64,000 bases of DNA, from the NCBI GenBank assembly GCA_021798335.1, contig JAJZMI010000050.1, positions 1,273 through 65,272 on the forward strand, read 5' to 3'. This document shows positions 3,493-50,934 of the stretch, in pieces. This DNA is from Pseudomonadota bacterium. Its GTDB lineage: Bacteria; Pseudomonadota; Gammaproteobacteria; Steroidobacterales; Steroidobacteraceae. Every line of letters begins with the position of its first letter. Positions within the stretch are counted from its first letter, which is position 1. The translations under genes and the position numbers were made by a program. Below the pieces are notes generated by a model that saw only the letters and a list, made by a program, of their open reading frames with translations, ran no database searches and had not been told where the DNA came from.

Positions 3493-3996
3493 TCAGCTTC
3501 CGCGATTGCGCCGCAAAGGGCAATGATCGAGAATCTGGCACAGGCGTGAATTGAGGTCGTTCTCTGGGCCGGCGGCTTGATGAGGGAGTTTTCGACCATA
3601 TCCCGGATTCCCACAGGGCAACTGGCAGGATAGCGCACAATTTCCGGTGTGAACCATGACATCAGAGGGTTCGCCGTTGTTCGCGACGTGCGCAGGGACA
3701 TTGAAGTCACCGATGAAGAGGCAGACGATATCGGTGGAGGCGCCGAGGGTGCAGTATCCGCCGGCGCGATCCTTGTGGATCTCGATGATGCGATTGACTT
3801 CTGCGGCGACGGCTCTGGTCTGATGGTGCTCCACAAAAGCGAAGATGTTGCCGAAATGCCTCTTCAGGACGCCGGCGCGGGCGCGCATCGAGGGGATGTG
3901 GCTTCGCAGGGCGGAGATCATCCGGATGCGCAGGAACTTCTCTGCGGCCCCCTGGCAGGTGAAGACCCAGAACCGGGTGCATTCGTCCTCGAGCAC
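3493..3996 (-). CDS. Short endonuclease/exonuclease/phosphatase (EEP)-like protein, possibly degenerate
   Basis: 167 aa with EEP-like motifs in order: WVFTCQG, NIFAFVE, LFIGDFNVP, ILDHCPL. It is much shorter than normal EEP enzymes. It lies 25 nt upstream of, and co-directional with, the AI-2E gene. Confidence 0.3.
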   Translation of the reverse strand: MLEDECTRFWVFTCQGAAEKFLRIRMISALRSHIPSMRARAGVLKRHFGNIFAFVEHHQTRAVAAEVNRIIEIHKDRAGGYCTLGASTDIVCLFIGDFNVPAHVANNGEPSDVMVHTGNCALSCQLPCGNPGYGRKLPHQAAGPENDLNSRLCQILDHCPLRRNRGS

Positions 3997-14965: not shown

Positions 14966-15082
14966 CACCTCTCAATAATAAGCACATATTATGCCAACGG
15001 TCGACGTCGGAGTGGTCTCCGGGATGAGCAGGCTCACGAATGGGAGTTCACACGCGTTGTGCGTTTCAAGAGAGCGCGGCTG

Positions 15083-27336: not shown

Positions 27337-27362
27337 CTTGTACCCCCAGATCTGTCGAACTG

Positions 27363-30115: not shown

Positions 30116-30204
30116 GGGCCTCTCCCGGGACCGTGGGCGCGCGGCCAGATCGGTATAGGGGAACAATGGACGGCTGTTTGCTTCGGGGTGGACAGGAGGT
30201 GCAT

Positions 30205-31242
30205 TTAGGCTCTCCGGGCTCGTCGGTAGCGCGCGGCAGCTCGGGTCAGCGTGGCTTTCAACCGCTTCCGCAGCGTCCCGGGGGCAACCACCTCCGCGCC
30301 ATCCCCGAACGCACGCAGCCACCATTCCAGTTGCTGCGTATCCTGGACGGTGGCGGTGACGAGAACCTCTTCGTCGTTGAGATCCTTGATGACCTGGTCG
30401 CCGCTCAGAGGGGTTTCCTCGAGATGCGTCCTGACGCCTCGATGAAAAATCACCTTGAGCACTATGGTCCTGCCAGTGGCTTCTCCACTTGGATACTGGA
30501 ATGCACCGCCGCGAATGTATTCATCGAGATCGAATCCCTCGGGGCGCGTTGCCACCTTCTCCAGCAGCTTCGCGTGCCGCATGCGCTGCAGCGGCACATG
30601 GCGCGGATCCCCGTAGTTCCAGTACGTGCACACGAGGTAAAGCAGGTTTCCGCGCGCCACCAGGCCCAAGGGGTTGAACTCCTGCTCCTTCCATTCCTTC
30701 CCTCCGGCGCTACGGCTCAGGTAGTGGGCGGTGAATCGTTTGCCCATGAGCAATGCGTCGTACACCACCCGCGTAGCGGCCACGTCGATCTTCGGGGCCA
30801 ACAGGGGCATCTCGCGCGGTACGACGCGCACGCAGTCGATCCAGCGGCCGAGGCCCGCGGCGTCTGCGCTCTTCAACGTCTCCTCGGCCCGTTGGAAATA
30901 CCGCCTCAGCTCATCGCTCAGGGTCGGCGGCAGGAACTGCGGGGTGAATCGCTGTAGGAGGTTCAGCATCAACGCGGTCCTCTGATCCATCGCGGGCAGA
31001 TCGAGGATCTCCGCGCCCCGCTCCCAGGACCAGCCCCGGGCAATTCCGCGCCTCTCCCCATCCGAATGAATGGGAAAACCCCCACGGCCGGACAAGGTCT
31101 CGAGATCCCGCTGGATCTGCCGGCGGCTGATTCGGTAGCCCTTCGCATTGAGCGTACGGTGCAGGCTCTTCACATCGCTCTTGGCTGGGTGTCGGGGAAT
31201 TGCCCGCAGGAGCTGCAGGTGACGAAGGATCGCATCAGCCAT
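30205..31242 (-). CDS. WYL-domain transcriptional regulator (HTH-WYL-WCX, BrxR/CapW-like)
   Basis: ATG at 31242 (MADAILRHLQLLRAIPRHP... is a winged HTH). The WYL-type core reads FNPLGLVARGNLLYLVCTYWNYGDPRHVPLQRMRHAKL. A C-terminal extension follows (VTATVQDTQQLEWWLRAFGDGAEVVAP). Confidence 0.8.
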   Translation of the reverse strand: MADAILRHLQLLRAIPRHPAKSDVKSLHRTLNAKGYRISRRQIQRDLETLSGRGGFPIHSDGERRGIARGWSWERGAEILDLPAMDQRTALMLNLLQRFTPQFLPPTLSDELRRYFQRAEETLKSADAAGLGRWIDCVRVVPREMPLLAPKIDVAATRVVYDALLMGKRFTAHYLSRSAGGKEWKEQEFNPLGLVARGNLLYLVCTYWNYGDPRHVPLQRMRHAKLLEKVATRPEGFDLDEYIRGGAFQYPSGEATGRTIVLKVIFHRGVRTHLEETPLSGDQVIKDLNDEEVLVTATVQDTQQLEWWLRAFGDGAEVVAPGTLRKRLKATLTRAAARYRRARRA

Positions 31243-31296
31243 GGGCCCCTCGATGGATCGGATTTTTTCTTCATTGTAGCAGCGTACCTCGGGGGT

Positions 31297-31313
31297 GCGA
31301 CACGAGATGTCGC
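31297..31313. promoter_or_regulatory. Inverted repeat GCGACA-N5-TGTCGC in the divergent intergenic region; candidate WYL-regulator operator
   Basis: A perfect 6-N5-6 inverted repeat seen at 31297-31313, between the WYL gene (start 31242) and the divergent gene (start 31432). The functional assignment is inference only. Confidence 0.25.
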
Positions 31314-31431
31314 GCCCGAACGGTACCGTGTCCTTATGACGCAAGAGAACGCGGGCGCTCACCGAGAAGGGCGCTTCGAGGTGGCGCGAAACACTTCGAT
31401 CCCTTCAAGAACACTTGCTTCGGAGGTCGGT

Positions 31432-31764
31432 ATGAAACGAATTATCCCGTGGATGATTCGTCAGGGAGACGTCTTGATGATTGCGGTTGATGCGATTCCG
31501 AATGACGCGGTCGAACAGCCGCGCGATGAATCTGATCGCGTCGTGCTCGCGTACGGCGAAGCCACCGGTCACGGCCATGCGCTTCACGAGCCTGGGGTGG
31601 CGATGCTGCGTGCCGCGAACCAGGAGGTGTTCTTGCGAGTCCTGGAACCGTCAACTCTCGTGCACGAGGAACATGACCGCATTGCCATTCCGCCGGGGCT
31701 CTACCGGGTGGTGCGACAGAGGGAATGGTCCGACGCGGATGAACCGACCCGGGTGGCCGACTGA
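31432..31764 (+). CDS. Hypothetical 110-aa protein
   Basis: ATG at 31432 with GGAGGT 4 nt upstream. It reads MKRIIPWMIRQGDVLMIAVDAIP...VLAYGEATGHGHAL...LVHEEHDRIAIPPGLYRVVRQREW. I recall the pattern (QGDV...GE.TGH.H...HEEH...G.Y.V..QRE) from small phage or prophage proteins of unknown function. Confidence 0.6.
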   Translation: MKRIIPWMIRQGDVLMIAVDAIPNDAVEQPRDESDRVVLAYGEATGHGHALHEPGVAMLRAANQEVFLRVLEPSTLVHEEHDRIAIPPGLYRVVRQREWSDADEPTRVAD

Positions 31765-31765
31765 A

Positions 31766-33136
31766 ATGCGTGAGATCAATGAGTTGACGCCGGACCAGGA
31801 GGTCCAGCTAAAACGGGAAGCCGATCACTGGTTGGCCAACGGCAGGTCCGTCGAACCGTTGGATCGCAAAAGGGCCGCCGACGCGATTTGCGCGCTGTAC
31901 GCGGCCGTAAGGCGTCCCACACCGGCTGTGCTGTTCTTCTCTTCTCCCGCCAGGTGCATCTTGGCGCTGCGCGCGATGATCAAGCTCGGGACCGAGCGAC
32001 GTTTGCTGTGTGACTCGAGTCTGGAATTGCAATTGCAAGAGCAGCTGAGAGCACAACCGATTCCGAAAGGATGGTTGCAGCGCCAGAGGCAGGCCGCCGC
32101 GTCGATCGGGCTGCGGATCGAGTCGCAGCGGCGGTTAGGAACCTGGGCGCAGATCTGGGATGAATCCAGCACTCACTTCGGGTCACGAATCGATTCCCGG
32201 ATTGGTCCCTCGCTTTGGGTGCAGCTTGACTGCGCGCTGCGCTCGATGCTGTGGGAGCAGTTACGGTCCAGACTCTGGCGGTCAGTGCACAGAAAGCTCA
32301 ACGAGCAATTCCGGGAACCCGTAAGACAAGTACTTGAAACAGACTCCATGTCGCGGTCCATCCGATATGGGGAGGACCCACGCGACCTGAGACAAAGACT
32401 GCTCGACGTCAGGTATCAGGAATCTCACCTGGATCAGATTAAACTCGAGATCGGCATGCCCGGAGTTGAGGGTGTGCCGCGCGGCCTGAAGGCGGATATC
32501 TGGGAGCACTGCATGGGCGCCTGGTGGTGCGCTTCCGCGGTGTTCTATGACTTTTGCGCTCGCATCGGTATTTCGTACGCCCCCGAGCAAACGCGGATTC
32601 TTCGACTGTGGCTTGACCAGTGCCGCTATAGTCACTGGTGGTTCGAGTGCGATGGCATTGTGTTCGTGTCCCATCGCCCAACGGTACTGAAACTGGATTC
32701 TGGGGGCAGGTTGCACAACGAGCGCGGCGCCGCCCTCGAGTATGGGGACGGATTCCGGCTGTGTGCGATTCATGGCGTACAGGTCGAAGAGGATGATGTT
32801 CTGCATCCAGAGCGTATTACGGTCCGCCGAGTCGAGCAGGAGCGCAATGTCGAGTTGCGACGCGCCCTGACGTCGTTCTACGGACAGGCGCGGTACCTGA
32901 AAGACTCCGGAGCCACCCTCGTGCACCAAGATGAACGAGGGAAACTCTGGCGAAAGAAGCGGGAGGGAGATACCGATCTCGTCATGGTAGAGGTGACAAA
33001 TTCGACCCCGGAACCCAACGGGAACGCCCGGCCATACCTGCTGCGGGTCCCGCCCGACATGAAGACGGCCGCGGAGGCGGTCGCATGGACATTCAGCATG
33101 CGGTCGGACCAATACAACCCGGATATCGAGACGTAA
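31766..33136 (+). CDS. Hypothetical 456-aa Trp/Cys-rich protein (resembles the family I recall as DUF6745; unverified)
   Basis: ATG at 31766, one nucleotide after the TGA of the upstream gene. Conserved-looking blocks are GAWWCASAVFYDF, WWFECDGIVFVSHRP, LHNERGAALEYGDGF, VEQERNVELRRAL, VTNSTPEPNGNARPYLLRVPPDMKTAAEAVAWTF. The track start at 31481 overlaps the upstream gene. Confidence 0.6.
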   Translation: MREINELTPDQEVQLKREADHWLANGRSVEPLDRKRAADAICALYAAVRRPTPAVLFFSSPARCILALRAMIKLGTERRLLCDSSLELQLQEQLRAQPIPKGWLQRQRQAAASIGLRIESQRRLGTWAQIWDESSTHFGSRIDSRIGPSLWVQLDCALRSMLWEQLRSRLWRSVHRKLNEQFREPVRQVLETDSMSRSIRYGEDPRDLRQRLLDVRYQESHLDQIKLEIGMPGVEGVPRGLKADIWEHCMGAWWCASAVFYDFCARIGISYAPEQTRILRLWLDQCRYSHWWFECDGIVFVSHRPTVLKLDSGGRLHNERGAALEYGDGFRLCAIHGVQVEEDDVLHPERITVRRVEQERNVELRRALTSFYGQARYLKDSGATLVHQDERGKLWRKKREGDTDLVMVEVTNSTPEPNGNARPYLLRVPPDMKTAAEAVAWTFSMRSDQYNPDIET

Positions 33137-33214
33137 TTGAAGTCGTTTCCCCAGGACACACATCGCCCGCGAGAGATCGCCACCGGACAGACGGTCATTC
33201 CAAAGTCGTTGCTT
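33133..33214. repeat. Two Tn7-end-type (TnsB-site-like) motifs in left-end orientation
   Basis: GTAATTGAAGTCGTTTCCCC (33133-33152) matches the reverse complement of the terminal site of the glmS-proximal right end (GTAATTAAAGTCGTATCCTC) at 17 of 20 positions. A second copy is TCATTCCAAAGTCGTTGCTT (33195-33214). No TGT terminus precedes them. Confidence 0.45.
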
Positions 33215-33420
33215 AGTTTTCCGCCCACCGTCCGTTCCCGGCGGAGGCGCCATCCGCACCTGGCAATGAGTCGCTTCATGAATAGGCAGCGGGTGACTTC
33301 TACTTGACCGTAGCAGTTCAGGAAGGATCGGGATGCCCCGCAGATAGGCTCACTCGCGCTGCAGTTGCCACTGCACTGCGGGCGCGTATTTCTTATTATT
33401 GCTGTTCTCCAGACAATCAC

Positions 33421-33438
33421 TATACTTAGACGGGTATA
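33421..33438. promoter_or_regulatory. TATAC-N8-GTATA inverted repeat upstream of the hipB-like gene (HipB-operator-like)
   Basis: Perfect 5-N8-5 inverted repeat at 33421-33438, plus the palindrome ATATCG-C-CGATAT at 33464-33476. E. coli HipB operators have the architecture TATCC-N8-GGATA. Confidence 0.3.
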
Positions 33439-33533
33439 GCATGCGGCCCCGCTGGTTGGAGCTATATCGCCGATATTCCCTATTCGCCTAAAGCTTATTC
33501 TTGTTCTAGGCGGCTTAAGACCGAAAGTACGCC

Positions 33534-33878
33534 ATGCGCCGTCCGGAATCCAAATTCGCATCGCCTCAGGCACATTCGACTGCCGCTCGCCTCGGCAGCG
33601 CAATCCGCGCTGCTCGTCTAGCCCGCAAGGCTACCCAGCAAGAGCTGGCGGAACGCGCTCGCATGAGCGTTTTCACTTGGCAAAAAATCGAAAAGGGCGA
33701 TACCTCGGTTGCCATGGGTACCTGGCTTTCCGCCCTGGAGCAAACCGGGCTCCTCGGACATCTCGAACAGTTGGGTGAGCCCGAGCATGACAGGCTTGGC
33801 CAAGCGTTGCGCCAACAGCAATTGCGTGTGCGAGGCCGCCGCGGCAATGCCCAGTCCTCGATTGACTACGACTTCTGA
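33534..33878 (+). CDS. hipB: XRE-family HTH antitoxin (HipB-like)
   Basis: 114 aa. LGSAIRAARLARKATQQELAERARMSVFTWQKIEKG is a Cro/C1-type HTH. It lies immediately upstream of hipA. Confidence 0.8.
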   Translation: MRRPESKFASPQAHSTAARLGSAIRAARLARKATQQELAERARMSVFTWQKIEKGDTSVAMGTWLSALEQTGLLGHLEQLGEPEHDRLGQALRQQQLRVRGRRGNAQSSIDYDF

Positions 33879-33887
33879 GGAACGCTC

Positions 33888-35171
33888 ATGTCCTGGGATG
33901 GAATCGTCTTCATCCACCTGCCTGATCAGAGCGAGGCGGTTCCGGCGGGAAGAATCTCGCTGCTGGAGGAGGGGCTCCAGTCCATAGGTAGCACCTTCGG
34001 TTACGGTGCCCGATATCTGAAGCGGCCCAACGCGATACCCGTCGACCCTGTAAGTCTACCGCTGTCGAGCTTATCCGGCGAGGAGCAGCTTTATGAGCCG
34101 CCCGCCGGCCTCGCTCTGTTCGGTGCGATTCGTGATGCCACCCCCGATTTATGGGGTCGGCGTGTCATCGAAGCGAAGTTGAAGGTGCCGCCCAACTCTG
34201 TTCCGGAATCGACTTATCTCCTCAACGCCGGCACCCATCGCTTCGGTGCTCTGGATTTCCGAGAGAGCATCCGCTCCGCGAGCGCCGCGGGCTTGCTGCC
34301 ACCGCTTAACGACCTTCAGTACCTGTTGGAAGCCGCGGATCGCGTGCAACAAGGTCTGCCGATACCGACCCGACTGGAAATGCTCTTTCAGGTAGCCAGC
34401 CTGGGTGGGGCGCGGCCGAAAGCACTTGTGTCACATGATGGCAGGCAATTTCTCGCGAAATTCCCGGCCAAGAACGACCCATTCGACATCCCGGCCGTCG
34501 AGCGCGCCTGCCTGGAACTTGCGCGCGCGTCTGGACTGAATGTGCCGCAGACCGATCTGGTACGACTCGCAGACGGTCGGAATGTAATGCTGATCGAGCG
34601 ATTCGACCGGGCCGTTCTGCCAGATGGCAGCTTCTCCCGGAAGCACTGCGTAAGTGCTCTGACCCTGCTTGGCAAACACGAGCAGGAGTCCCCGGCCTCC
34701 AGTTACTCCGAGATCGCCCAGGTGATTTCCGATCGTGGAGTGTCCGGACACGTGCAAGAGGACCGTGCGGAGCTGTATGCGAGAGTTGCGTTCAATATCC
34801 TCATTTCGAATGACGACGACCACCTGCGAAATCACGCATTCATATGGCACCCGCCGGGCAAGGCTTGGCGACTGAGTCCGCTGTACGACGTGGTTCCCCG
34901 CCCGCAAGTATTCCACGAGCGACGATTGCATCTGTCGGTCGGCCCCCAAGGCAGGAACGCCACGCTCACAAACCTGTTCGAGGCACGCGGAAGTTTCGGC
35001 TTGCTGAAACCCGACGCAATCGCAATCATCGAGAGGGTCTCTGCGGCGGCGCGAGAATGGCGCACACACTTGGAATCGGCGGGTGTGAGCCCTGCGCAAT
35101 GCGACCTCGTTCAAAGTGCATTCCGTAGACCACAAGATATCGGTCTCGACGAGATAACGAAGACGCGGTAG
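33888..35171 (+). CDS. hipA: Type II toxin HipA-family Ser/Thr kinase
   Basis: 427 aa with HipA N-domain motifs (DATPDLWGRRVIE), LGGARPKALV, and the kinase core ILISNDDDHLRNHAFIW. Confidence 0.9.
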   Translation: MSWDGIVFIHLPDQSEAVPAGRISLLEEGLQSIGSTFGYGARYLKRPNAIPVDPVSLPLSSLSGEEQLYEPPAGLALFGAIRDATPDLWGRRVIEAKLKVPPNSVPESTYLLNAGTHRFGALDFRESIRSASAAGLLPPLNDLQYLLEAADRVQQGLPIPTRLEMLFQVASLGGARPKALVSHDGRQFLAKFPAKNDPFDIPAVERACLELARASGLNVPQTDLVRLADGRNVMLIERFDRAVLPDGSFSRKHCVSALTLLGKHEQESPASSYSEIAQVISDRGVSGHVQEDRAELYARVAFNILISNDDDHLRNHAFIWHPPGKAWRLSPLYDVVPRPQVFHERRLHLSVGPQGRNATLTNLFEARGSFGLLKPDAIAIIERVSAAAREWRTHLESAGVSPAQCDLVQSAFRRPQDIGLDEITKTR

Positions 35172-35590
35172 CAAGCCTCGTACCGGGCGCATGGCTCAGA
35201 TCAGTGCTTGCCACGCCGGGAACTCAGGGCATTGACCGGGCCGAGGCGGCACGTCGCATGACTGAAGCCTTCGGCGCCGAATTGGATCGGTCTGCGTCTT
35301 CATCAGCGGGAGACTTCCAGCCAGGTTCTAACTGGAGTAACCAATCGGGCTAGCACGCATTCTGGCTGAATGGGACTCTGAGCCTGAGCTGAAGGTTTCC
35401 TGAGGGTGTCGGATTCTTCGGCAATCTTGTCGTAGTCGACACATACGATGAGACGGGAGTTCACAGCGCCACCGGTCTCATCAGCAAATGGGTAGCAGTC
35501 GCGCCACCGCGCGTTCTTTGAATTCGTTGCCGTATCAAGCCACTGTCGTTTCTCAATGCCCCCAAGGTTACCGAGGTATTGAGGCGACAA

Positions 35591-35902
35591 CTACGGTCCC
35601 CCGGAGGGGGGGCCCACCAAATGGGGCTCGGCGGCCCGCCTCGCCTGCTGCTGCAGCCAGCCCTGCATGGCGCTGGTGTCGAGGCACTGCTGCTGCGGAA
35701 TGTACGGGAGATGCGACTGACGGATGCAGAACTCAGTCTTGCCGTGACGGATTCTTGGGGAGTATCCGGCGCTCTCAGCTCTGAGTAACAAGCTGCGCGG
35801 GACGCCAAAATGCGCTGCTTCGGCAGTTAGCGTCTCGGTATTTGCGCATGCCCCCAACAGCACCGACAGAGTGATCAGGATCGACAAATTCACGGCTTTC
35901 AT
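35591..35902 (-). CDS. Small lipoprotein
   Basis: ATG at 35902. MKAVNLSILITLSVLLGAC carries a lipobox (LLGAC). 103 aa. Confidence 0.6.
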   Translation of the reverse strand: MKAVNLSILITLSVLLGACANTETLTAEAAHFGVPRSLLLRAESAGYSPRIRHGKTEFCIRQSHLPYIPQQQCLDTSAMQGWLQQQARRAAEPHLVGPPSGGP

Positions 35903-36181
35903 GACGTCGATTCCTTCCGAACTGTTCCATTCAAATGAGAATGAATTCCCCATCGCGCGGCCGAGTCGCCCCGATCAGTCCGTAGTGCCTGACGCGTGTC
36001 AGACTTTCCTAGCCCGTCAACCGGGGGCGCGGGAGCCGGACGCCGGTCTGGAAGCCCACCGCAGGCTATCACCCCCGGGAGCAGCGGTGCAAATTATTCG
36101 CTTCTTGTACACACGTTGCAGATTCCGGGGAGGCCGCGCGCGTGCAGAATTTTCCCTCCCCCGGGCGTTCACCTCGGAGGT

Positions 36182-36302
36182 AAGGAGTTTAATCCCCAGA
36201 AGAGGACTTTAATGTCCAGGTAACGGCTCCGATTCGAGCACGCAGTCGCATCCCCGGGAAGCGACTTTGATTCTGGGGTAACGACTTTGATTCGGCCCCA
36301 CA
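36182..36302. repeat. Internal Tn7-like right end: array of TnsB-site-like repeats ending in ...CCACA
   Basis: Direct repeats GGAGTTTAATCC, GGACTTTAATGTCC, ACGGCTCCGATTCG, GCGACTTTGATTCT and ACGACTTTGATTCGG, followed by the terminus CCCCACA at 36296-36302. The motif and orientation match the glmS-proximal end at 39145-39213. Confidence 0.6.
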
Positions 36303-36346
36303 AATGTCCGTATCTAAAGCTGGTAACGGCCATTAAAGTCATGTAG

Positions 36347-36405
36347 AGCTGTCTAAGAGAGTAGACTCCGGGTGAAACCCCCGGAGTCTACTCTCTTAGA
36401 CAGCT
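36347..36405. repeat. Perfect 26-bp inverted repeat with a 7-nt loop
   Basis: AGCTGTCTAAGAGAGTAGACTCCGGG (36347-36372), TGAAACC, CCCGGAGTCTACTCTCTTAGACAGCT (36380-36405). The right arm is the first readable part of the IS701-like remnant. Confidence 0.95.
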
Positions 36406-36875
36406 GGCTGTGGGATAAGCACAGCCCCACTGCTCACTGTTGGCATTTGATTGTGAGACGGGAGTTGAATTCTCCGGGTACCCTCAAATTCAGCTTGAGC
36501 AACGCTTCGGCCAAGACGAGCATGACCAAGTTGGCGCAGATGCAAGCACAACGCTTCTGGATCGAGCGCGCCTTCCAGGACGCCAAGAGCCATATCGGAA
36601 TGGCGCAATATCAAGCAAGACAATGGCCCTCCTGGCATCGTCACATGGCCCTGGTGATGATGGCGATGCTATTCATGTTGCAGGCGCGACTCAAACACAT
36701 CGATACCCACCCGTTGCTCAGCTGCTACGACATCCAGATCTTGCTCGCCACCACGTTGCCGGACCGACGTAGCAGCCAGGAAGAAGTGATGAGGCAGCTG
36801 CGAACTCGACACGAAAAACGCCAGGCCCTAATCGAAGCGGCGAACCGCAGATCAAAACGCAACTCATTGATATGA
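36372..36875 (+). pseudogene. IS701-family-like transposase, C-terminal remnant only
   Basis: QRFWIERAFQDAKSHIGMAQYQARQWPSWHRHMALVMMAMLFML is the typical C-terminal DDE block of IS701/IS4-type transposases. The N-terminal two thirds are missing. Confidence 0.65.
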
Positions 36876-36876
36876 C

Positions 36877-36954
36877 TGTGATTCAAAGTGACGGAGTAGA
36901 ATTAGTAACCGACAGGTCATAGCCGAAACGCGACGAACTCAGATTCAAAAGAGG
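36877..36954. repeat. Possible Tn7-like left-end fragment (TGTG + three degenerate sites)
   Basis: TGTGATTCAAAGTGACGGA (36877-36895), TAGAATTAGTAACCGAC (36897-36913) and CAGATTCAAAAGAGG (36940-36954) are the complement-orientation version of the CGACTTTGATTC motif. Spacing to the TGT differs from the right ends. Confidence 0.35.
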
Positions 36955-36959
36955 CACCC

Positions 36960-37418
36960 TCAGTCCGCCTCGGGTTCATTGAGCCGCCACGGGACCGATG
37001 AAGCGGCAAACGCGAGCTGCACCAATGGTAGGCCCTTGAGTTCGCAAAGGCTCGGTGCTGACTTTTGGCATAGGTGAACGGTAAAGCCCGTCCCAAGTTC
37101 CACAGGCGGAAAATCTCCGGATTCATCCAACGTCCCGATGAAGTGGAACCAGCCGCCATAGTGGTGTTTTCCCGGAGAGAGCCGGCCGTTATGATAGACC
37201 TCACCGTCTTTCGCCGGATCAATACCAAGCGTCGTCAGTAGAGACAAGAAGGTCGATGGGAAGACTTCAGTTCGTGCAGCGACAAAATTTCTGCATCCAT
37301 TGCAGGTGCATCGGCTGGAATAGCCAAGACCTGCGCGCGTATAGACCTCCGCAGTGGCCGCGCGGTCGCACGTGTATCGCCACTTTCCGAGAGAAGCCAT
37401 CGATTTCCGCTCGCACAA
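36960..37418 (-). CDS. Hypothetical 152-aa Cys-containing protein
   Basis: The composition is protein-like: WRYTCDRAATAEVY...CTCNGCRNFVAARTEVFPSTFLSLLTTLGIDPAKDGEVYH...HHYGGWFHFIGTL. I can assign no function. Confidence 0.5.
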   Translation of the reverse strand: MCERKSMASLGKWRYTCDRAATAEVYTRAGLGYSSRCTCNGCRNFVAARTEVFPSTFLSLLTTLGIDPAKDGEVYHNGRLSPGKHHYGGWFHFIGTLDESGDFPPVELGTGFTVHLCQKSAPSLCELKGLPLVQLAFAASSVPWRLNEPEAD

Positions 37419-37814
37419 TCTGCCTGCTGGACCAAGCTTCCACGAATGGCCGCTATCCGGTCAACCATTTCGCTGTGCGAGTGACGGCAATTGGCCGCTA
37501 TGCAGATTTATGCATAGTGGCCGAGAGGCGCTGGCCAGCGATAGCGTAGTCGTGATCCTGGCGTTTAAGGGCGAAATATGCGATTTGGAAATATTTTTCA
37601 ATATTTCGGCCAGCCTGATTGGCTAGGCGCTTTTTTTTGGACCAATTGGTCCTGGATACCGGTTCCTCGGTTCTCACGTTGTGCGCCGCGGGCACGCGCA
37701 AAGCCTGTTCCCCGGCCTGTTCTGCTAGCGGAAAGCGCTCCGTCGCGAAGGACAGAGGCGATTCGGGCTGCGCGCAGAACTGTTGCCGCCGTAGGGAGGC
37801 AACAGAGGGTCTGT

Positions 37815-38900
37815 CTAGTGTAGTGCTTCATTCTGTTTGGAACTTAAGCGGCTATTTGCACGAATGACCTTTTGCAAGATATCGCGAGCGCTCTTGGTCC
37901 AAATGAATGGCTTGGGATTGGTATTGTGATGCGCGATGTAGTCATCGATGGCGGCGACCAATTCGGGCACGCTCGTGAACACACCGCGGCGCAGCCGTTC
38001 CACCGTGATGTCCCGAAAGAACCGCTCAACCATGTTCAACCACGAGGCCGAGGTCGGCGTGAAGTGCATGTGGATACGCGGTCGTTTCGCAAGCCACCGC
38101 TGCACGGCCGGATGCTTGTGGGTAGCGTAATTGTCGGCGATCAAATGCAATTCCTTGTCCGCCGGCGTTTCACGCTCGATCTGGCGCAGGAACTTCAGCC
38201 ACTCGATGTGGCGATGCCGCTGCTGACATTGGGCAATCACCTGTCCGTCGAGGACGTTGAGCGCCGCGAACAACGTGGTCGTCCCGTTGCGCTTGTAATC
38301 GTGCGTCATCGTCGCCGCGCGTCCCTTCTTCATCGGCAACCCAGGTTGCGTGCGATCCAGCGCCTGTACTTGACTCTTCTCATCACAGCACAAGACCAAC
38401 GCGTGATCCGGCGGGGACATGTACAGGCCGACGATGTCCTCGAGCTTCTCTACAAACTGCGGATCACGCGAGACCTTGAAGCCTCGCACCCGATGCGGCT
38501 TCAGCCCGTGCTGGCGCCACACCCGCAGCACCGTGGTGTCGCTGACGCCCACCTGCGCCGCCATCGAGCGCGTGCTCCATTGCGTGGCGTTGGCAGGCAA
38601 AGTCTGCGTCGTCAGTCGCACGATCTGCGCCGCGTCAACCTTCACCGGTCGCCCGCCGCGCGGCAAATCCTGCTCAATCGCCGCCAAGCCGCCCTCGATA
38701 TAGCGATTGCGCCAGCGTCCGACTTGAACACGACCAACGCCCACCTGGGCGGCAATCGTATGGTTGTCCAACCCGTCCGCCGCACCCAGTACGATCTGCG
38801 CGCGGCGCGCCAATCGAACACTGACCGTCTTGGATCGAGCCAGCTGCAGCAACTTCGCTCGCTCCTCGTTCAACAACACAATCTCCGCCGCTTTGCGCAT
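37815..38900 (-). CDS. IS630-family DDE transposase
   Basis: 361 aa with N-terminal HTH domains and a DDE core ([14 protein letters not shown]...[13 protein letters not shown]...[13 protein letters not shown]). Confidence 0.9.
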
Positions 38901-38981
38901 CGCTCGTTCCCCATTGATCGCCTCAATGGTAAGACAGGAATTGCGCTGATCGGCTCCGTTAATTATGAAGCACTACACTAG
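37815..38981 (-). mobile_element. Intact IS630-family insertion sequence
   Basis: Perfect 17-bp terminal inverted repeats CTAGTGTAGTGCTTCAT (37815-37831) and ATGAAGCACTACACTAG (38965-38981), each containing a TA (the IS630/Tc1 target). A single uninterrupted 361-aa transposase ORF lies inside. Confidence 0.9.
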
Positions 38982-39144
38982 CTGTATGTGGGCAGTACCG
39001 TTAGCGGGTAACAAATAGACCGCCCCGTGAGCACTCGGCCTCCTCAGCTGGCTTGCCCGATTCTTAGCCAGTCTGGAGCACAAAGGAGCACTTCATGGGA
39101 TTATTGGCTACGCCGGAGCAGCTCCGAGATATTAGGTCACCCGG

Positions 39145-39213
39145 ACAGGAAACGACTCTATTCCACAGGAACCAACTTTATTCCCGAGGATACGACTTTA
39201 ATTACATGCCACA
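39145..39213. repeat. Tn7-like right end abutting attTn7 (glmS 3' end)
   Basis: Three contiguous 20-21-bp direct repeats: ACAGGAAACGACTCTATTCC (39145-39164), ACAGGAACCAACTTTATTCC (39165-39184) and CGAGGATACGACTTTAATTAC (39185-39205). The terminal octamer is ATGCCACA (39206-39213), which reads TGTGGCAT from outside. Exactly 25 nt (39214-39238) separate the terminus from the glmS stop codon. Confidence 0.7.
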
Positions 39214-39238
39214 TTAATGTCCGTTTCTAAAAGCCCGC

Positions 39239-41071
39239 TCACTCCACCGTCACGCTCTTGGCGAGATTGCGCGGCTGATCGACGTCCGTGCCCTTCATGA
39301 TGGCGACGTGATAGGCGAGCAGCTGCAGGGGTATGGTGTACACGATGGGCGATTGGAAATAGCTCACGTGTCTGGGCATCTCGATGACGGTAACACCGTC
39401 GCTCGGCTGCAACCCCGATTCCGGATCGGCGAAGACGATGAGCTCGCCGCCGCGCGCCCGCACCTCCATCAGATTCGACTTCAGCTTTTCCAACAGGTCG
39501 TTGTTGGGTGCCACGGCAACCACGGGCATATCCGCGTCCACGAGCGCGAGCGGACCGTGCTTGAGCTCGCCGGCCGGATAGCTCTCGGCATGAATGTAGG
39601 AGATCTCCTTGAGCTTCAGTGCCCCTTCCATCGCGATGGGATACAGGCCACCGCGACCGAGGAACAAGGTGTGGTGCTTGTCGGCGAAGCGCTCGGCGAG
39701 TTTGTGGATGACGGGATCGAGCGTGAGCGCCTTCTCGACGAGCGCAGGCAGTTCCACCAGCCGCGTGACCAGACCCCGCTCGCGCTCGGCGTCGGCGCCC
39801 TGATGGCGGGCGAGGGCGATGGTCAGCATGGCGAGCGCGGTCAGCTGGGTCGTGAATGCCTTGGTCGAGGCGACGCCGATCTCGGGGCCGGCGCGCGTCA
39901 GCATCACCAGCTCCGACTCGCGCACCAGGGAGCTTTCCGGAGCGTTGCAGATGGCAAGCTGGGATAGATAACCCGATTGCCGGGCAAGGCGCAGCGCCGC
40001 CAGCGTATCGGCCGTCTCGCCGGACTGCGAGATCGTGACGAACAGCGAGTCGGGCGGCACCAGCGGATTGCGGTAGCGGTATTCGCTGGCGATGTCGACT
40101 GCACACGGAAGGCGGCAGATCTGCTCGATGAAATAGCGCACCACGGAAGCGGCATGATAGCTGGTGCCGCACGCGACGATGTGCACGCACCGCACACGCT
40201 TGAAGACCTCGGTGGCGGCCGGGCCGAACGCGGCCTCCAGCAGGCGGCCGTGGGCGACGCGCTCGGCGAGTGTGTCCGCGATGGCGCGCGGCTGCTCGTG
40301 GATTTCCTTGAGCATGAAATGGCGGTATGGACCCTTTTCCGCCGGATCGGCGCTGAGGTCACTTTCCCGAACCGGCCGCTCCGCAGCGCCGCCCTTGCGG
40401 TCGACGATGCGCACGCTGGTGCGCCGGATCTCGGCGACATCCCCCTCCTCGAGAAACATGAAGCGCCGCGTCACGGGCAACAGCGCTGCAACGTCGGAGG
40501 CGACGAAATTCTCCTCGACACCGAGGCCGATGACCACGGGGCACCCCTGGCGCGCCACGACCAGTCGCTGCGGGTCGTGGTCACTGATCACGGCGAGCGC
40601 ATAGGCACCTTGCAGCTCGGCGACGGTGGCTCGCACTGCTTCGAACAGATCCCGCAGGGTGTTCAAATGAAGATGAATGCGGTGCGCCACCACTTCGGTA
40701 TCGGTCTCCGAAGTGAACCGATAGCCGCGCTTCTCCAGATCGGCCCGGAGTGCTTCGTGGTTTTCGATGATGCCGTTGTGCACGACGGCTAATCCGTCCT
40801 GCGAGACGTGAGGATGCGCATTGCGCTCGCTGGGCACGCCATGTGTCGCCCAGCGCGTATGCGCAATCCCGGTGCCGCCGCCGATAGGCGTCGCGGCCAA
40901 GGCTTGCTCGAGCATTTTGACCTTGCCGACGGTACGCATGCGGGCCAACCTGCCCGAATGAATGACCGCCAGACCCGCGGAGTCGTAACCCCGATACTCG
41001 AGCCGCCGCAACCCTTCAATCAGCACCGGGACGATATTGCGCTCGGCGATTGCTCCGACGATTCCGCACAT
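39239..41071 (-). CDS. glmS: Glutamine--fructose-6-phosphate aminotransferase
   Basis: 610 aa. It starts [12 protein letters not shown] (N-terminal Cys nucleophile), has two SIS domains, and ends ...[15 protein letters not shown]. Confidence 0.97.
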
Positions 41072-42324: not shown

Positions 42325-43719
42325 CTACTTGGGCTTCTTCACCGGCCGCTGCCAGTCCTCAAGGGTACTCTGACGGGCCCGCGCGATGGTGAGCCTGCCT
42401 GCGGGGACTTCATGGACGACGGTCGAGCCCGCGGCAATCGTGGCGCCCTCGCCCACCGTGATCGGCGCCACCAGCACGCTGTTCGATCCCGTGTGGGCAT
42501 CGTCATGGATGATCGTGCGATGCTTGTTCGCGCCGTCATAGTTGGCGACGATCGTGCCGGCGCCGATGTTGACACGGGCGCCGACTTTCGCATCCCCGAC
42601 GTAGGACAGGTGATTGGCCTTCGAATCCGTACCGAGGGTCGAGTTCTTGACCTCCACGAAGTTGCCGATGTGCACGCCCGGGCCGAGCGCGGTGGTCGGT
42701 CGCACGCGGGAAAACGGCCCGATGCGGGCGGCGGCGCCGATCACCGCACCGTCCAGCACGCAGAACGGAAACAGCTCGGTGTCATCGCCCACTTCGCTGT
42801 CGCGTATGACGCAGCCGGAACCGATGCGGACCCGGTTGCCGAGCTTCACCCTGCCTTCGAATACCACGTTGACGTCGACGAAGACGTCCTGACCATGCGT
42901 GACCGAGCCGCGCACGTCGATGCGAGCCGGATCGACCACCGTCACACCAGCCGTCATGAGCGTCTGCGCCGCCCGGCGCCGGCAGACTGCCTCGAGCTGC
43001 GCAAGCTGCGTCTTGTCATTGACACCCAGGGCATCGATGGAATCGGCGAGGGACACCGCGGTGACCGTGGCGCCCTGCGCCACCGCCAGCCCGATCACGT
43101 CGGTGAGGTAGTACTCGCCCTGCGCGTTGTCGTTGCGCAACTGCGCGAGCCAGTCCTTGAGCCGGCGCGCCGGCGCTGCCAACACCCCGGTGTTGCATTC
43201 CCGGACGGCGAGCTGCTCGGGCGTCGCATCCTTCTGCTCGACGTTGCGCACGACTCGACCGGACGCATCGCGCACGATCCGGCCGTAGCCGGCCGGATCC
43301 TCGGGCACCATCGTGAGCACGGCCAGCTCGCCGGCGGCGCCTATTCGGACCAGGCGCGCGAGCGGCTCTGCGCCGAGCAGGGGCACGTCGCCGTACAGCA
43401 CCAACACAGTATCGCCGTCCGGGACGTGCGGCACCGCCTGCTGCACGGCATGGCCGGTGCCGAGTTGCCGCTCCTGCGGGACCCATTGCACGCTTTCGCC
43501 GGGAAATGCGGCCCGTACCTGCTCGCCGGCATGGCCGTACACGACCAGGATGCGCTGCGGCGAGAGGCGGTGAGCCGTATCGAGGACGTGCGCGAGCAGC
43601 GGCCGCCCGGTCAGCGGCTGCAGCACCTTCGGCAGCCCGGAGTTCATCCGCCTGCCCTCGCCCGCGGCGAGAATCACCACCGAAAGCCCCGTCGAGTGCG
43701 TGGACGCTGCAGTGCTCAT
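42325..43719 (-). CDS. glmU: Bifunctional UDP-N-acetylglucosamine diphosphorylase / glucosamine-1-phosphate N-acetyltransferase
   Basis: 464 aa. LSVVILAAGEGRRMNSGLPKVLQPL forms the nucleotidyltransferase domain, followed by a C-terminal left-handed beta-helix of hexapeptide repeats. Confidence 0.95.
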   Translation of the reverse strand: MSTAASTHSTGLSVVILAAGEGRRMNSGLPKVLQPLTGRPLLAHVLDTAHRLSPQRILVVYGHAGEQVRAAFPGESVQWVPQERQLGTGHAVQQAVPHVPDGDTVLVLYGDVPLLGAEPLARLVRIGAAGELAVLTMVPEDPAGYGRIVRDASGRVVRNVEQKDATPEQLAVRECNTGVLAAPARRLKDWLAQLRNDNAQGEYYLTDVIGLAVAQGATVTAVSLADSIDALGVNDKTQLAQLEAVCRRRAAQTLMTAGVTVVDPARIDVRGSVTHGQDVFVDVNVVFEGRVKLGNRVRIGSGCVIRDSEVGDDTELFPFCVLDGAVIGAAARIGPFSRVRPTTALGPGVHIGNFVEVKNSTLGTDSKANHLSYVGDAKVGARVNIGAGTIVANYDGANKHRTIIHDDAHTGSNSVLVAPITVGEGATIAAGSTVVHEVPAGRLTIARARQSTLEDWQRPVKKPK

Positions 43720-43757
43720 ACGGACCCTTATGGTGCGGGCCAGGCGCCGGCGCGCAT

Positions 43758-44186
43758 CTAGCTCCGGATTTTTCGCAGCCGCGCGATGACTTTCAATTGC
43801 GCCGCCGCGCGGGCGAGTTCGGCCAGCGCCTCGGCCTGAGTGATCAGGCCGCTGCGGTCCTTCAGCGCCTCCTCGGCGCGCTGCTTGGCGGCAAGCGCCG
43901 CGGCCTCGTCGATGTCTTTGGCGCGCAGCGCCGTGTCGGCCAGAACCGTCACATGATGCGGCTGTACCTCGATCGCCCCGCCGCCGACGAAGAAGAACTG
44001 CTCCTGGCCATCCGGTGTCTGAATCCTGACCTCGCCCGGCTTGAGCATCGAGAGCAGCGGCGCGTGGCGCGGCGCCACGCCGATGTCACCCTGGGAGGCC
44101 GGCGCGAACACCATGGTGGCCGCCCCCGAGAAGACTTCGCCCTCGGCACTGACGATGTCGACCTGAATGGTGCTCGGTTGGGTCAT
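43758..44186 (-). CDS. atpC: F1 ATP synthase epsilon subunit
   Basis: ATG at 44186 (MTQPSTIQVDIVSAEGEVFSG...), 142 aa. The longer track ORF (to 44645) runs through the atpD 3' end in another frame. Confidence 0.9.
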   Translation of the reverse strand: MTQPSTIQVDIVSAEGEVFSGAATMVFAPASQGDIGVAPRHAPLLSMLKPGEVRIQTPDGQEQFFFVGGGAIEVQPHHVTVLADTALRAKDIDEAAALAAKQRAEEALKDRSGLITQAEALAELARAAAQLKVIARLRKIRS

Positions 44187-44196
44187 GACGCACCTC

Positions 44197-46511
<2,315 letters not shown>

Positions 46512-46521
46512 CAGGCGACCC

Positions 46522-48063
<1,542 letters not shown>

Positions 48064-48086
48064 AACAGTGTTCCCCGGGAAAATGC

Positions 48087-48617
48087 TTACGCGGTCAACG
48101 CACGGGCGACGCGCTCGAGCCTGCTGCGCAACGAGCCATCGATGACCAGATCGCCGGCGCGCACGCTGGCGCCGCCGATCAATGCCGGATCATGCGTGCA
48201 ACGCAGACGCACGGTACGCCCCAGCCGCCGCTCGAGCGCCGCGGCGAGCATACCCTGCTGGGTCTCACTCAGCGCGCAGGCAGAGGTCACCTCCACATCG
48301 ACAGTCCCCTCGGCCCGAGCCTTGAGGTCCTCGAAGCGCGCGGAGACTTCCGCCAGACAGCCGAGCCGGTGATTTTCGGCGAGTATGCGGATGAAGTTGC
48401 GTGTGGCCGGCTCCAGGCTCGGGCCGGCGACGGCCGCCACCAGCTCGGCAAGCTGCTCGCTCGGGATGCGCGGATCGTGCAGCAAGGCCTCGACCCGTGG
48501 ATCGGCGACCGCGCGCGCGGCGCGGCGCAAGGCTTCGGACCACGGCGCAAGCTGGCCGCGCGCCGCCTCGAAGGCGGCCTTGGCATAGGGTCTGGCGATG
48601 GTGCTCTTGTCCGGCAT
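48087..48617 (-). CDS. atpH: F1 ATP synthase delta subunit
   Basis: 176 aa. It has the OSCP-type start ([13 protein letters not shown]) and the expected position in the operon. Confidence 0.9.
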
Positions 48618-48629
48618 CGTCTGGCTCGC

Positions 48630-49100
48630 TCAGATCTGTGCGGCGAATTCTTCGAGCAGCGCCGCGTGAGCGTGGGGATCGATCTCGCGCTCGAGGAGCT
48701 TCGCGGCGGCCGCCACGGCGATCGCGCCGACCTGCCGGCGCAGCTGCTCGCGGGCGCGGGCGGCATCCAGCTCGATCTGCTGCTGCGCGGCGACGAGCAG
48801 GCGCTGGCCCTCCTGCGTCGCGGCAACGCGGGCGTGCTCGACGATCTCGTTGGCGCTGTGCTGGGCCTGATCGAGGATGACGCCGGCACGCTCGCGCGCC
48901 TCGCGCAGGATCGCCTCGGCTCCCGCGCGGGCCTGCCTCAGTTCCTCCTCGCCCTTGTCGGCCGCAGCCAAACCTTGCGCAATCCGCCGCTCACGCTCCT
49001 GCATCGGGCCGAGGATCATCGGCCACACGAATTTCATCGTAAACCAGACGAGCGCGGCGAACGCCAGCATCTGGACGAGGAGCGTCAGATTTATATGCAC
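48630..49100 (-). CDS. atpF: F0 ATP synthase subunit b
   Basis: 156 aa with a single N-terminal TM helix and a long charged helix. Confidence 0.9.
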
Positions 49101-49146
49101 GGTCGCCTCCTTCCGAGAAGCGCTTTAGCGGGGGCCCGCAGGCGGC

Positions 49147-49419
<273 letters not shown>

Positions 49420-49465
49420 TCAAATCTCCTCGGACAGGAATGCATTTTGGATCGAGACGAGCCGG

Positions 49466-50934
<1,469 letters not shown>

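What the first reader, a model, noticed from the sequence alone, without database searches (positions are those of the whole stretch)
39145..39238. Tn7-like right end sits exactly 25 bp downstream of the glmS stop codon
Three head-to-tail 20-21-bp repeats are ACAGGAAACGACTCTATTCC, ACAGGAACCAACTTTATTCC and CGAGGATACGACTTTAATTAC. They are followed by ATGCCACA, which reads TGTGGCAT... from outside. Tn7 ends begin TGTGGGCGGACAATAAAGTC...

A 25-nt spacer then leads to the glmS TGA. Tn7 and its relatives are known to insert about 25 bp downstream of glmS with the right end proximal to glmS, and the right end carries closely packed TnsB sites. This defines the right boundary of the accessory island. 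No tnsA/B/C/D-like ORF exists anywhere in the window, so whatever is bounded here is non-autonomous or decayed.
Basis: partly seen in the sequence, partly recalled or inferred. Interest (0 to 1): 0.7.

Follow-up and report, generated by a model that had tools for sequence, protein, structure and literature searches.

The report
Transposase-less Tn7-like end beside glmS
The repeats just downstream of glmS are the right end of a Tn7-type transposon sitting at the classic Tn7 landing site, but it has no transposase genes; it is the outermost of at least two small, decayed "hitch-hiker" elements stacked there and marks the edge of a roughly 36-kb accessory island.

Summary
Reading away from the glmS stop codon (39241-39239, minus strand) there is a 25-nt spacer, the tip TGTGGCAT, then three contiguous 20/21-bp repeats (39145-39205). 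This matches Tn7 at E. coli attTn7: 25-nt spacer, TGTGG tip, AAAGT at positions 15-19.

- Close relatives (97% identical core DNA) lose homology with the window exactly at this tip.
- One related species is polymorphic: some strains have an empty site, others a 245-bp ORF-less insert. The insert starts with the same 25 nt, ends in an inverted TGTGACCA tip and has a perfect 5-bp duplication (AATTT).
- Two relatives carry complete 3-kb elements with both ends and no tns genes. They are stacked head-to-tail with a second right end.

The window shows the same stacking. A second right-end array lies at 36302-36176. It is followed by hipBA and a three-site left end (33125-33285).

No TnsA-E relative was found in the window or in 126 related loci, so the autonomous partner is unknown. 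The window copy is probably immobile: IS630 and IS701 insertions, a degenerate partner end, and no clean duplication.

This is an ordinary kind of element from an uncharacterised family.

The parts
39239..41071 (-). glmS (610 aa). Its 3' end is the presumed TnsD/TniQ recognition region.
   Evidence: Pfam GATase_6/7 plus SIS domains. An identical protein lies on an ENA metagenome contig.
39214..39238 (-). 25-nt spacer between the glmS stop and the transposon tip (attTn7-like insertion point).
   Evidence: E. coli Tn7 has the same 25 nt. Eight related loci have 23-25 nt.
39206..39213 (-). Terminal 8 bp of right end R1 (TGTGGCAT read inward).
   Evidence: The same tip occurs in L070, L102, L104 and L117.
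39145..39205 (-). Three contiguous 20/21-bp transposase-binding-type repeats of R1.
   Evidence: weight-matrix scores 25-29 bits. AAAGT sits at positions 15-19 from the tip, as in Tn7R.
38983..39144 (-). Subterminal segment of R1, loosely conserved with relatives (59-64% over the subterminal segment; 75-79% by BLAST over the whole ~200-bp end).
37816..38980 (-). IS630-family insertion sequence inside element 1. It has a 361-aa transposase, terminal inverted repeats GTGTAGTGCTTCAT and TA flanks.
   Evidence: Pfam DDE_3. NCBIfam transpos_IS630 at 272.8 bits, above the cutoff of 100. Ends read.
36347..36875 (+). Perfect 26-nt palindrome (36347-36405) plus a C-terminal fragment of an IS701-family transposase (36372-36875).
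   Evidence: inverted repeat I10. NCBIfam transpos_IS701 E=1.3e-23, matching only profile positions 272-361.
36321..36345 (+). Probable degenerate left end of element 1 (TGGTAACGGCCATTAAAGTCATG). AAAGT is in the correct register but the tip is TGG, not TGT.
   Evidence: This is an inference.
36303..36320 (-). Second copy of the att spacer (GCTTTAGATACGGACATT against GCTTTTAGAAACGGACATT at glmS).
   Evidence: Unexplained by simple transposition.
36176..36302 (-). Second right-end array R2: tip TGTGGGGCC plus five 20-bp sites.
   Evidence: Weight-matrix scores 28.0, 25.9, 15.3, 13.0 and 20.2 bits. Sequence.
33534..35171 (+). hipB-hipA toxin-antitoxin pair, the cargo of element 2.
   Evidence: Pfam HipA_C. 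NCBIfam couple_hipB.
33125..33285 (+). Left-end-type array of element 2: three sites in inverted orientation, 63-65 bp apart. The TGT tip has been lost, and the stop codon of the neighbouring ORF lies inside the first site.
   Evidence: (23.4 bits). The same 65-bp spacing occurs in the left ends of L104 and L110.
3548..3567 (+). Weak left-type site next to the point where backbone synteny with L104 resumes (window 3493 or below). Tentative outer limit of the island.
   Evidence: Weight-matrix score 13.3 bits. L104 alignment.

Best explanation
Positions 39145-39213 are the right end of a Tn7-family transposon inserted at the canonical glmS attachment site.

How such an end works is established knowledge for Tn7. 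A TnsB-type transposase binds the contiguous about 20-bp repeats. The element is cut at the TGT...ACA tips. A TnsD/TniQ protein bound to the 3' end of glmS, acting through TnsC, directs insertion about 25 bp past the stop codon, with the right end next to glmS and a 5-bp duplication.

This element carries no transposition genes, so it depends on proteins supplied in trans by an autonomous relative that I did not find.

In the window the end belongs to the outermost of at least two small elements stacked at the site.
- Element 1 spans about 36321-39213. It is broken by IS630 and an IS701 fragment, and its left tip is degenerate.
- Element 2 spans about 33125-36302. Its cargo is hipBA and its left tip is lost.

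Both are probably immobile now. Together they form the glmS-proximal part of an accessory island about 36 kb long.

What is shown: the anatomy, the position, the homology break at the tip, and mobility with a 5-bp duplication for the same end type in a relative. What is inferred: TnsB/TnsD dependence, mobilisation in trans, and the present immobility of the window copy.
For: Anatomy and position.
- The anatomy is as described and exceeds chance.
- The spacer (25 nt), the tip (TGTGG) and the register of the first site (AAAGT at 15-19) equal Tn7R in an annotated E. coli attTn7::Tn7. Ungapped identity is 18 of the first 30 nt.

Homology breaks at the tip.
- L126 and L127 are 97% identical to the window over 11.8 kb of atp-glmS and stop aligning at window 39216. 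L102, L103 and L104 stop at 39227-39235.

Empty against occupied site, within one GlmS-identical species.
- Empty: TGA GGTGCCGGTAGAAAGAGACAATTT GCCAAT.
- Occupied: ...ACAATTT | TGTGGCATGTAATTAAAGTCGTATC...CATGGTCACA | AATTT GCCAAT.
- The insert is 245 bp, has no ORF and is flanked by a perfect 5-bp duplication.

Complete elements without tns genes in relatives.
- L070 11858-15049: right tip TGTGGCAT, left tip TGTGGGCC, flanks ATTTT/ATTTG. A second right end follows immediately.
- L104 11859-14977, followed by an R1-type end.
- L110: 6.3 kb with a three-site left end.

Constraint on the tip.
- The terminal 29 nt are identical in the window, L070, L102 and L104. The adjacent 160 bp is only 59-64% identical, even though the core DNA of L102 is 92-96% identical to the window.

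Stacking in the window.
- A second right array and a spaced three-site left array lie in the window itself.

Absence of tns genes.
- No tns genes were found.
Against: - No autonomous element with tnsABC and tnsD/tniQ and matching ends was found. The searches covered the window, 126 fetched loci, plasmids and viral contigs. Assignment to the Tn7 family therefore rests on cis features and position alone.
- The window copy lacks a verifiable duplication. TTAAT lies beside R1, but AAAGC lies beside the candidate left end.
- An 18-nt second copy of the att spacer sits between element 1 and R2. A simple insertion does not produce this.
- Duplications in L070 (4 of 5), L104 and L110 are imperfect.
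- In every one of about 10 distinct arrangements the glmS-proximal end has no tnsA beside it. This is unlike Tn7.
Confidence: 0.85

Rival explanations
1. Inert fossil. R1 is only the leftover right end of a once-autonomous Tn7-like element that inserted in an ancestor of this clade. Its tns genes were later deleted. It never moved as a transposase-less unit.
For: R1-type ends sit at the same place in many relatives, in various states of decay. L106-L109 keep one site. L112 has a mutated core. L110 has lost the middle site. The window copy has IS insertions, a degenerate partner end and no duplication.
Against: The interior next to the end is only 59-64% identical between genomes whose core DNA is 92-96% identical, so the copies are not simple orthologues. 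The terminal 29 nt are invariant. The same end type bounds a 245-bp element that is polymorphic within one species and has a perfect duplication, so transposase-less copies do move.
Confidence: 0.3
2. Not a transposon end. The repeats are binding sites for some other protein downstream of glmS, such as arm-type sites of an integrase-borne island, iterons or a regulatory array.
For: No transposase was found. The repeats are direct and closely packed, as arm-type sites can be.
Against: Inverted TGT tips occur at both ends of the complete copies. There is a 5-bp duplication with a matching empty site, and no integrase in the 245-bp or 3-kb elements. The layout is asymmetric as in Tn7: contiguous sites at the right end and sites 65 bp apart at the left end. 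The offset from the glmS stop is exactly the Tn7 offset. Rfam finds no RNA family at the end.
Confidence: 0.03
3. The junction was made by recombination. The glmS-spacer-R1 segment arrived by homologous or illegitimate recombination from another lineage, or the contig is an assembly chimera joined at a repeat. It was not a transposition event in this genome.
For: A second copy of the att spacer lies next to R2. Between the window and L070, third-codon identity is 0.59-0.71 on the glmS/atp side but 0.94 for the CheB-CheR gene on the island side. A short-read contig of the same organism ends inside the IS630.
Against: This would explain how the end came to lie here, not what it is. The end is still a Tn7-type terminus at the canonical offset. 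The short-read contig L001 independently confirms the glmS-spacer-R1-IS630 junction.
Confidence: 0.25

Closest known systems
Tn7 inserted at attTn7 downstream of glmS in E. coli (locus L099, NZ_CP033762)
   Same: 25-nt spacer after the glmS stop. Right end proximal to glmS. TGTGG tip. First binding site in the same register (AAAGT at 15-19). Contiguous sites at about 20-bp spacing in the right end. A 5-bp duplication, seen in the relative L117.
   Different: Tn7 carries tnsABCDE directly inside the right end; here there are none. The site consensus differs (AATAAAGTCGTTTCCT against ACAATAAAGTCTTAAACT). Ungapped identity is 18 of the first 30 nt and 32 of the first 70.
Laboratory mini-Tn7 and mini-Tn6022 elements (ends only, proteins supplied in trans; described in PMC11014353 and bioRxiv 10.1101/2025.07.27.667033)
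   Same: Two ends flank cargo, with no transposition genes, and insert at the att site. The natural 245-bp (L117) and 3-kb (L070, L104) elements have this design.
   Different: These are natural copies, and their helper has not been identified. The window copy is degraded.
Genomic islands built by active and inactive Tn7-like elements at the glmS and comM sites of Acinetobacter baumannii (PMC11014353); defence-rich cargo of Tn7-like transposons (PMC8649781)
   Same: Several elements and remnants accumulate at one att site. IS elements are nested inside. Cargo includes toxin-antitoxin and defence-like genes.
   Different: Those surveys start from TnsB genes. Here no element in about 45 glmS loci of the clade carries tns genes within 10 kb. 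The stacked neighbours have somewhat different tips and site variants.
MITEs (non-autonomous derivatives of insertion sequences)
   Same: The 245-bp ORF-less element in L117-L122 has inverted tips and a target duplication, and it is polymorphic in a population.
   Different: It is site-specific (glmS only in the data seen). It has asymmetric multi-site ends instead of simple inverted repeats. Its copy number is unknown.

Membership tests
Tn7-like transposon (TnsB transposase, TnsC, TnsD/TniQ targeting) | Inverted 5'-TGT...ACA-3' tips (about 8-bp terminal repeats). | tested here: met
   The R1 tip is TGTGGCAT. Complete copies in relatives have TGT tips at both ends: L070 TGTGGCAT/TGTGGGCC, L104 TGTGCGCC/TGTAGGCA, L110 TGTCGGAT/TGTGGGCA, L117 TGTGGCAT/TGTGACCA. 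The window's candidate partner end reads TGG.
Tn7-like transposon (TnsB transposase, TnsC, TnsD/TniQ targeting) | Several about 20-22-bp transposase-binding repeats, arranged asymmetrically: contiguous in the right end and spaced in the left end. | tested here: met
   R1 has three contiguous sites and R2 has five. Left ends have three sites 63-65 bp apart in the window (33139, 33202, 33267), L104 and L110.
Tn7-like transposon (TnsB transposase, TnsC, TnsD/TniQ targeting) | Insertion at a fixed offset (about 25 bp) downstream of glmS, with the right end proximal. | tested here: met
   The spacer is 25 nt in the window and 25 nt in E. coli Tn7. It is 23-25 nt in L070, L103, L104, L106, L110 and L117 and about 24-27 nt in L093 and L097 by reading.
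Tn7-like transposon (TnsB transposase, TnsC, TnsD/TniQ targeting) | 5-bp target-site duplication. | tested here: inconclusive
   In the window the flanks do not match: TTAAT against AAAGC. In a relative the duplication AATTT is perfect and has a matching empty site. L070 matches at 4 of 5 positions.
Tn7-like transposon (TnsB transposase, TnsC, TnsD/TniQ targeting) | tnsB, tnsC and tnsD/tniQ (usually also tnsA) genes encoded inside the element. | tested here: not met
   tblastn and phmmer with Tn7 TnsA-E gave no hit in the window or in 126 loci. Pfam and NCBIfam on the island ORFs gave none. The window copy can therefore be filed only as a non-autonomous or decayed derivative.
Tn7-like transposon (TnsB transposase, TnsC, TnsD/TniQ targeting) | The ends are bound and cut by a TnsB-family transposase. 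| not testable with these tools
   This needs a binding or transposition assay, and the cognate protein is unidentified.
Non-autonomous (mini or MITE-like) derivative of a transposon | Both ends present, no transposase, and evidence of movement. | tested here: inconclusive
   Met in relatives: the 245-bp insert in L117-L122 against the empty site in L116, L123 and L125, plus the 3-kb elements in L070 and L104. For the window copy the left end is degenerate and movement cannot be shown.

The most novel reading that the evidence does not exclude
Steroidobacteraceae host a family of naturally occurring Tn7-type elements without transposase genes. They range from a 245-bp ORF-less miniature to 3-6-kb units whose cargo includes toxin-antitoxin pairs (hipBA in the window; an Xre-HTH/RES pair in L104; a PIN-like DUF5615 protein in L070). 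An unseen master element moves them in trans. They pile up head-to-tail at the glmS site. Neighbours in a stack carry different tip and site variants (window, L070, L104), which suggests that target immunity is variant-specific and is evaded by heterologous ends.
Probability: 0.45. Interest if true: 0.6.

Novelty: new member of a known kind. Interest (0 to 1): 0.4.

Why it matters
The end fixes the glmS-side boundary of the accessory island to the base pair. It also explains why the island looks as it does: successive site-specific insertions followed by IS-mediated decay.

Beyond this window, the related loci give a clean natural example of Tn7-type ends moving without their own genes. Surveys that start from TnsB genes miss this class by design. 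The example includes an empty/occupied pair and several end variants, which would let someone identify the helper transposase, define its binding site and test whether target immunity is end-specific.

Tried and rejected
- **Partner left end.** I looked in the window for a copy matching R1 (26-mer with up to 3 mismatches) and ran a whole-window repeat search. Only the right end matched. A plus-strand motif hit at 14423 is a chance match inside a coding region.
- **Plasmids.** blastn (distant mode) of the 231-bp R1 region against 72,556 plasmids gave no match. This is partly a sensitivity limit for 20-bp repeats.
- **Viral contigs.** Two pattern scans returned nothing.
- **Metagenome pattern scan.** It gave 17 hits. 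Three are glmS-adjacent ends (L083, L093, L097) and there are two other end families (L084/85/88/95 and L092/98). Others are unrelated repeat arrays or coding sequence (L082, L086, L087, L089-L091, L094, L096). None has tns genes on the short contigs.
- **Tn7 proteins.** tblastn and phmmer with Tn7 TnsA-E against all fetched DNA found nothing.
- **Hunt for an autonomous element.** I examined the 10 kb downstream of glmS in 80 species representatives and in about 45 contigs of close relatives. No tns genes appeared.
- **Rfam.** Only spurious miRNA-hairpin matches to the 26-nt palindrome.
- **Literature.** The held library has no description of natural miniature Tn7-like elements. Parks & Peters 2007 could not be opened.
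- **An inference I withdrew.** I first read the 46-nt identity with L070 as proof of a recent insertion. R1-type ends proved widespread in the clade, so the argument now rests on the contrast between the invariant tip and the diverged interior.

Full report
**Observation.** That TCA is the TGA stop of a 610-aa minus-strand ORF with glutamine-amidotransferase and SIS domains, i.e. glmS. Read outward from glmS the order is TGA, GCGGGCTTTTAGAAACGGACATTAA, TGTGGCAT, GTAATTAAAGTCGTATCCTCG, GGAATAAAGTTGGTTCCTGT, GGAATAGAGTCGTTTCCTGT. Pattern searches with mismatches find the array only here, against zero matches expected in shuffles. A weight matrix built from 19 related sites scores the three repeats 25-29 bits; shuffled windows give 0.3 hits at 14 bits or more.

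**Comparison with real Tn7.** I fetched an annotated E. coli chromosome carrying Tn7 at attTn7 (L099). There glmS ends at 14975 and Tn7R begins at 15001, so the spacer is also 25 nt. TnsA, the transposase, the AAA ATPase, TnsD and TnsE follow. Aligned without gaps from the tip, Tn7R and the window end share TGTGG and place AAAGT at positions 15-19. Identity is 18 of the first 30 nt. The second and third sites follow at 20-nt steps, against 20-22 nt in Tn7R.

**Organism and island boundary.** GlmS relatives place the window in the Steroidobacteraceae, a family of Gammaproteobacteria. The upstream order parB-atpIBEFHAGDC-glmU-CHAD-glmS is conserved. Contigs whose atp-glmS DNA is 97% identical to the window (L126, L127) stop aligning at window 39216, inside the last bases of the spacer, and continue with unrelated sequence. 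L102, L103 and L104 (87-96% identical core DNA) stop at 39227-39235. More distant family members carry unrelated DNA after glmS. In L104 an AI-2E transporter gene lies 7.2 kb after glmS. Its counterpart in the window is at 2386-3468, and homology resumes at window 3493. About 3.5-39.2 kb of the window is therefore accessory relative to that genome. A weak left-type site at 3548-3567 lies next to that junction. I treat this outer limit as tentative.

**Proof that this end type is a mobile terminus.** One species, whose GlmS is 87% identical to the window's, is polymorphic.
- L116, L123 and L125 read TGA GGTGCCGGTAGAAAGAGACAATTT GCCAATATGAGC.
- L117-L122 read ...GAGACAATTT, then a 245-bp insert, then AATTT GCCAAT.
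- The insert begins TGTGGCATGTAATTAAAGTCGTATC and ends CATGGTCACA.

The insert has no ORF. Its first 25 nt equal the window's R1, it has three right-end sites and its tip is inverted at the far end. It is flanked by a perfect 5-bp duplication, 24 nt after the stop codon.

**Complete elements without tns genes, and stacking.**
- In L070 (GlmS 86% identical) the same right end starts 24 nt after the stop. At 15049 there is an inverted left tip (TGTGGGCCCTAATTAAAGTCGTTTCC) with flanks ATTTT/ATTTG. Six nucleotides later a second right end begins, with four contiguous sites. The 3.2 kb between the ends encodes a PNPOx-like protein, two TetR regulators and a PIN-like protein, and no tns genes.
- L104 has a 3.1-kb element (25-nt spacer, tip TGTGCGCC). 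Its cargo includes an Xre-HTH/RES pair. It ends in three left sites 65 bp apart and is followed after 4 nt by an R1-type end.
- L110 has a 6.3-kb element with an R1-type right end and a three-site left end.
- Right ends have contiguous sites and left ends have sites about 65 bp apart, the same asymmetry as in Tn7.

**The window shows the same stacking.** The weight matrix finds a second right-end array on the minus strand, with tip TGTGGGGCC at 36302 and five sites down to 36176. Further in lie hipB-hipA (33534-35171) and three inverted sites at 33134-33153, about 33200 and about 33265, 63-65 bp apart. This is a left-end architecture. Its TGT tip has been replaced, and the stop codon of the neighbouring DUF6745 ORF lies within the first site.

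Between R1 and R2 lie:
- an intact IS630-family element at 37816-38980;
- an IS701-family transposase fragment with a perfect 26-nt palindrome;
- a candidate degenerate left end at 36321 (TGGTAACGGCCATTAAAGTC), with AAAGT in the correct register.

**What does not fit.** Immediately outside R2 there is a second copy of the att spacer: GCTTTAGATACGGACATT against GCTTTTAGAAACGGACATT at glmS. A 5-bp duplication cannot create this. It indicates that R2 once lay directly after glmS. The glmS-spacer-R1 segment was probably joined later by recombination or a more complex event. In line with a mosaic history, third-codon identity between the window and L070 is 0.59-0.71 for glmS, glmU and the atp genes but 0.94 for the CheB-CheR gene at 8526-11096. 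The duplications in L070, L104 and L110 are imperfect.

**Constraint on the tip.** The first 29 nt are identical in the window, L070, L102 and L104. The next 40 nt are 88-90% identical and the following 160 nt only 59-64% identical (figures for L102 and L104; L070 diverges after the second repeat), although L102's core DNA is 92-96% identical to the window. Other relatives show decay: one site in L106-L109 and a mutated core in L112. The pattern fits a cis-acting end that is, or recently was, under selection for recognition, with independent copies rather than one inherited fossil.

**No transposition genes.** tblastn and phmmer with Tn7 TnsA-E found nothing in the window or in 126 fetched loci. 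Pfam and NCBIfam on about 50 island ORFs found only the IS630 and IS701 transposases. None of about 10 distinct glmS-proximal arrangements in this clade has tnsA beside the right end. Plasmid and viral collections gave no match to the end. The helper element is therefore unidentified. Assignment to the Tn7 family rests on cis anatomy, the duplication length and the target position.

**Mechanism and verdict.** The best-supported reading is a Tn7-type right end belonging to a transposase-less element that depends on trans-acting TnsB/TnsC/TnsD-like proteins. In this window it is decayed and it marks the glmS edge of an island built by repeated insertion. The literature describes target immunity, laboratory mini-elements moved in trans, and islands of active and inactive Tn7-like elements at glmS (PMC11014353, PMC8649781, bioRxiv 10.1101/2025.07.27.667033). 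I found no description of natural miniature Tn7-type elements in the held library, but absence there is not proof of novelty. I rate the window feature as a new member of a known kind with moderate interest. The more novel reading is a mobile family of transposase-less elements whose heterologous ends allow stacking. That reading is plausible but untested.

Noticed in passing
window 7465-11627 against L070 17650-21828, and window 42328-50787 against L070 382-8921: Divergence is very unequal on the two sides of the island. The CheB-CheR-PAS gene region is 94% identical at nucleotide level (third-codon identity 0.94). The atp-glmU-glmS region is 81% identical (third-codon identity 0.59-0.71). 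One side has been exchanged between lineages, or one of the assemblies is a mosaic.
   Followed up: partly
window 36303-36320: A second copy of the glmS-downstream spacer lies directly outside the inner right end R2, 2.9 kb away from glmS. Simple transposition with a 5-bp duplication does not explain it. L083 similarly carries a roughly 90-nt glmS 3' fragment fused directly to an R1-type end.
   Followed up: partly
window 36347-36405: A perfect 26-nt inverted repeat with a 7-nt loop lies next to an IS701-family transposase fragment (36372-36875). It may be two IS ends joined head to head. Rfam gives only spurious miRNA-hairpin matches.
   Followed up: partly
window 26005-31362: A minus-strand gene cluster looks like a candidate defence module. 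It comprises a WYL/WCX regulator (30205-31362), a DUF2779 protein with a weak Cas4-like match (28622-30325), and two ORFs of 420 and 443 aa with no Pfam family. The last ORF lies in a GC trough (0.49 against about 0.64).
   Followed up: partly
window 31481-33136: A 551-aa DUF6745 protein has its stop codon inside the terminal site of the element-2 left end. A rearrangement apparently removed the transposon tip.
   Followed up: no
L084, L085 and L088 (metagenome contigs): One element, 97-98% identical between contigs, has the tip TGTAGACGAAAAATAAAGTTGTTTCCT with two or three tandem copies of the site (carboxylesterase cargo). It sits next to a lactonase gene in two contigs and next to an ECF sigma factor gene in another. 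The wider end family therefore also uses targets other than glmS.
   Followed up: no
L102 11840-13706: In a relative with 98% identical GlmS, a 1.87-kb AT-rich insert encodes a 564-aa protein with no Pfam hit on record. It sits between glmS (6 nt after the stop) and an R1-type end, and it has no Tn7-type sites of its own.
   Followed up: no
stacked ends in the window (R1/R2), L070 (11858/15056) and L104 (11859/14982): Neighbouring elements in each stack carry different tip and site variants: TGTGGCAT-GTAATTAAAGTCGTATCC against TGTGCGRCC-GAAWTAAAGTC..TTACCC. This would fit target immunity that acts only between like ends. There are only three cases.
   Followed up: no
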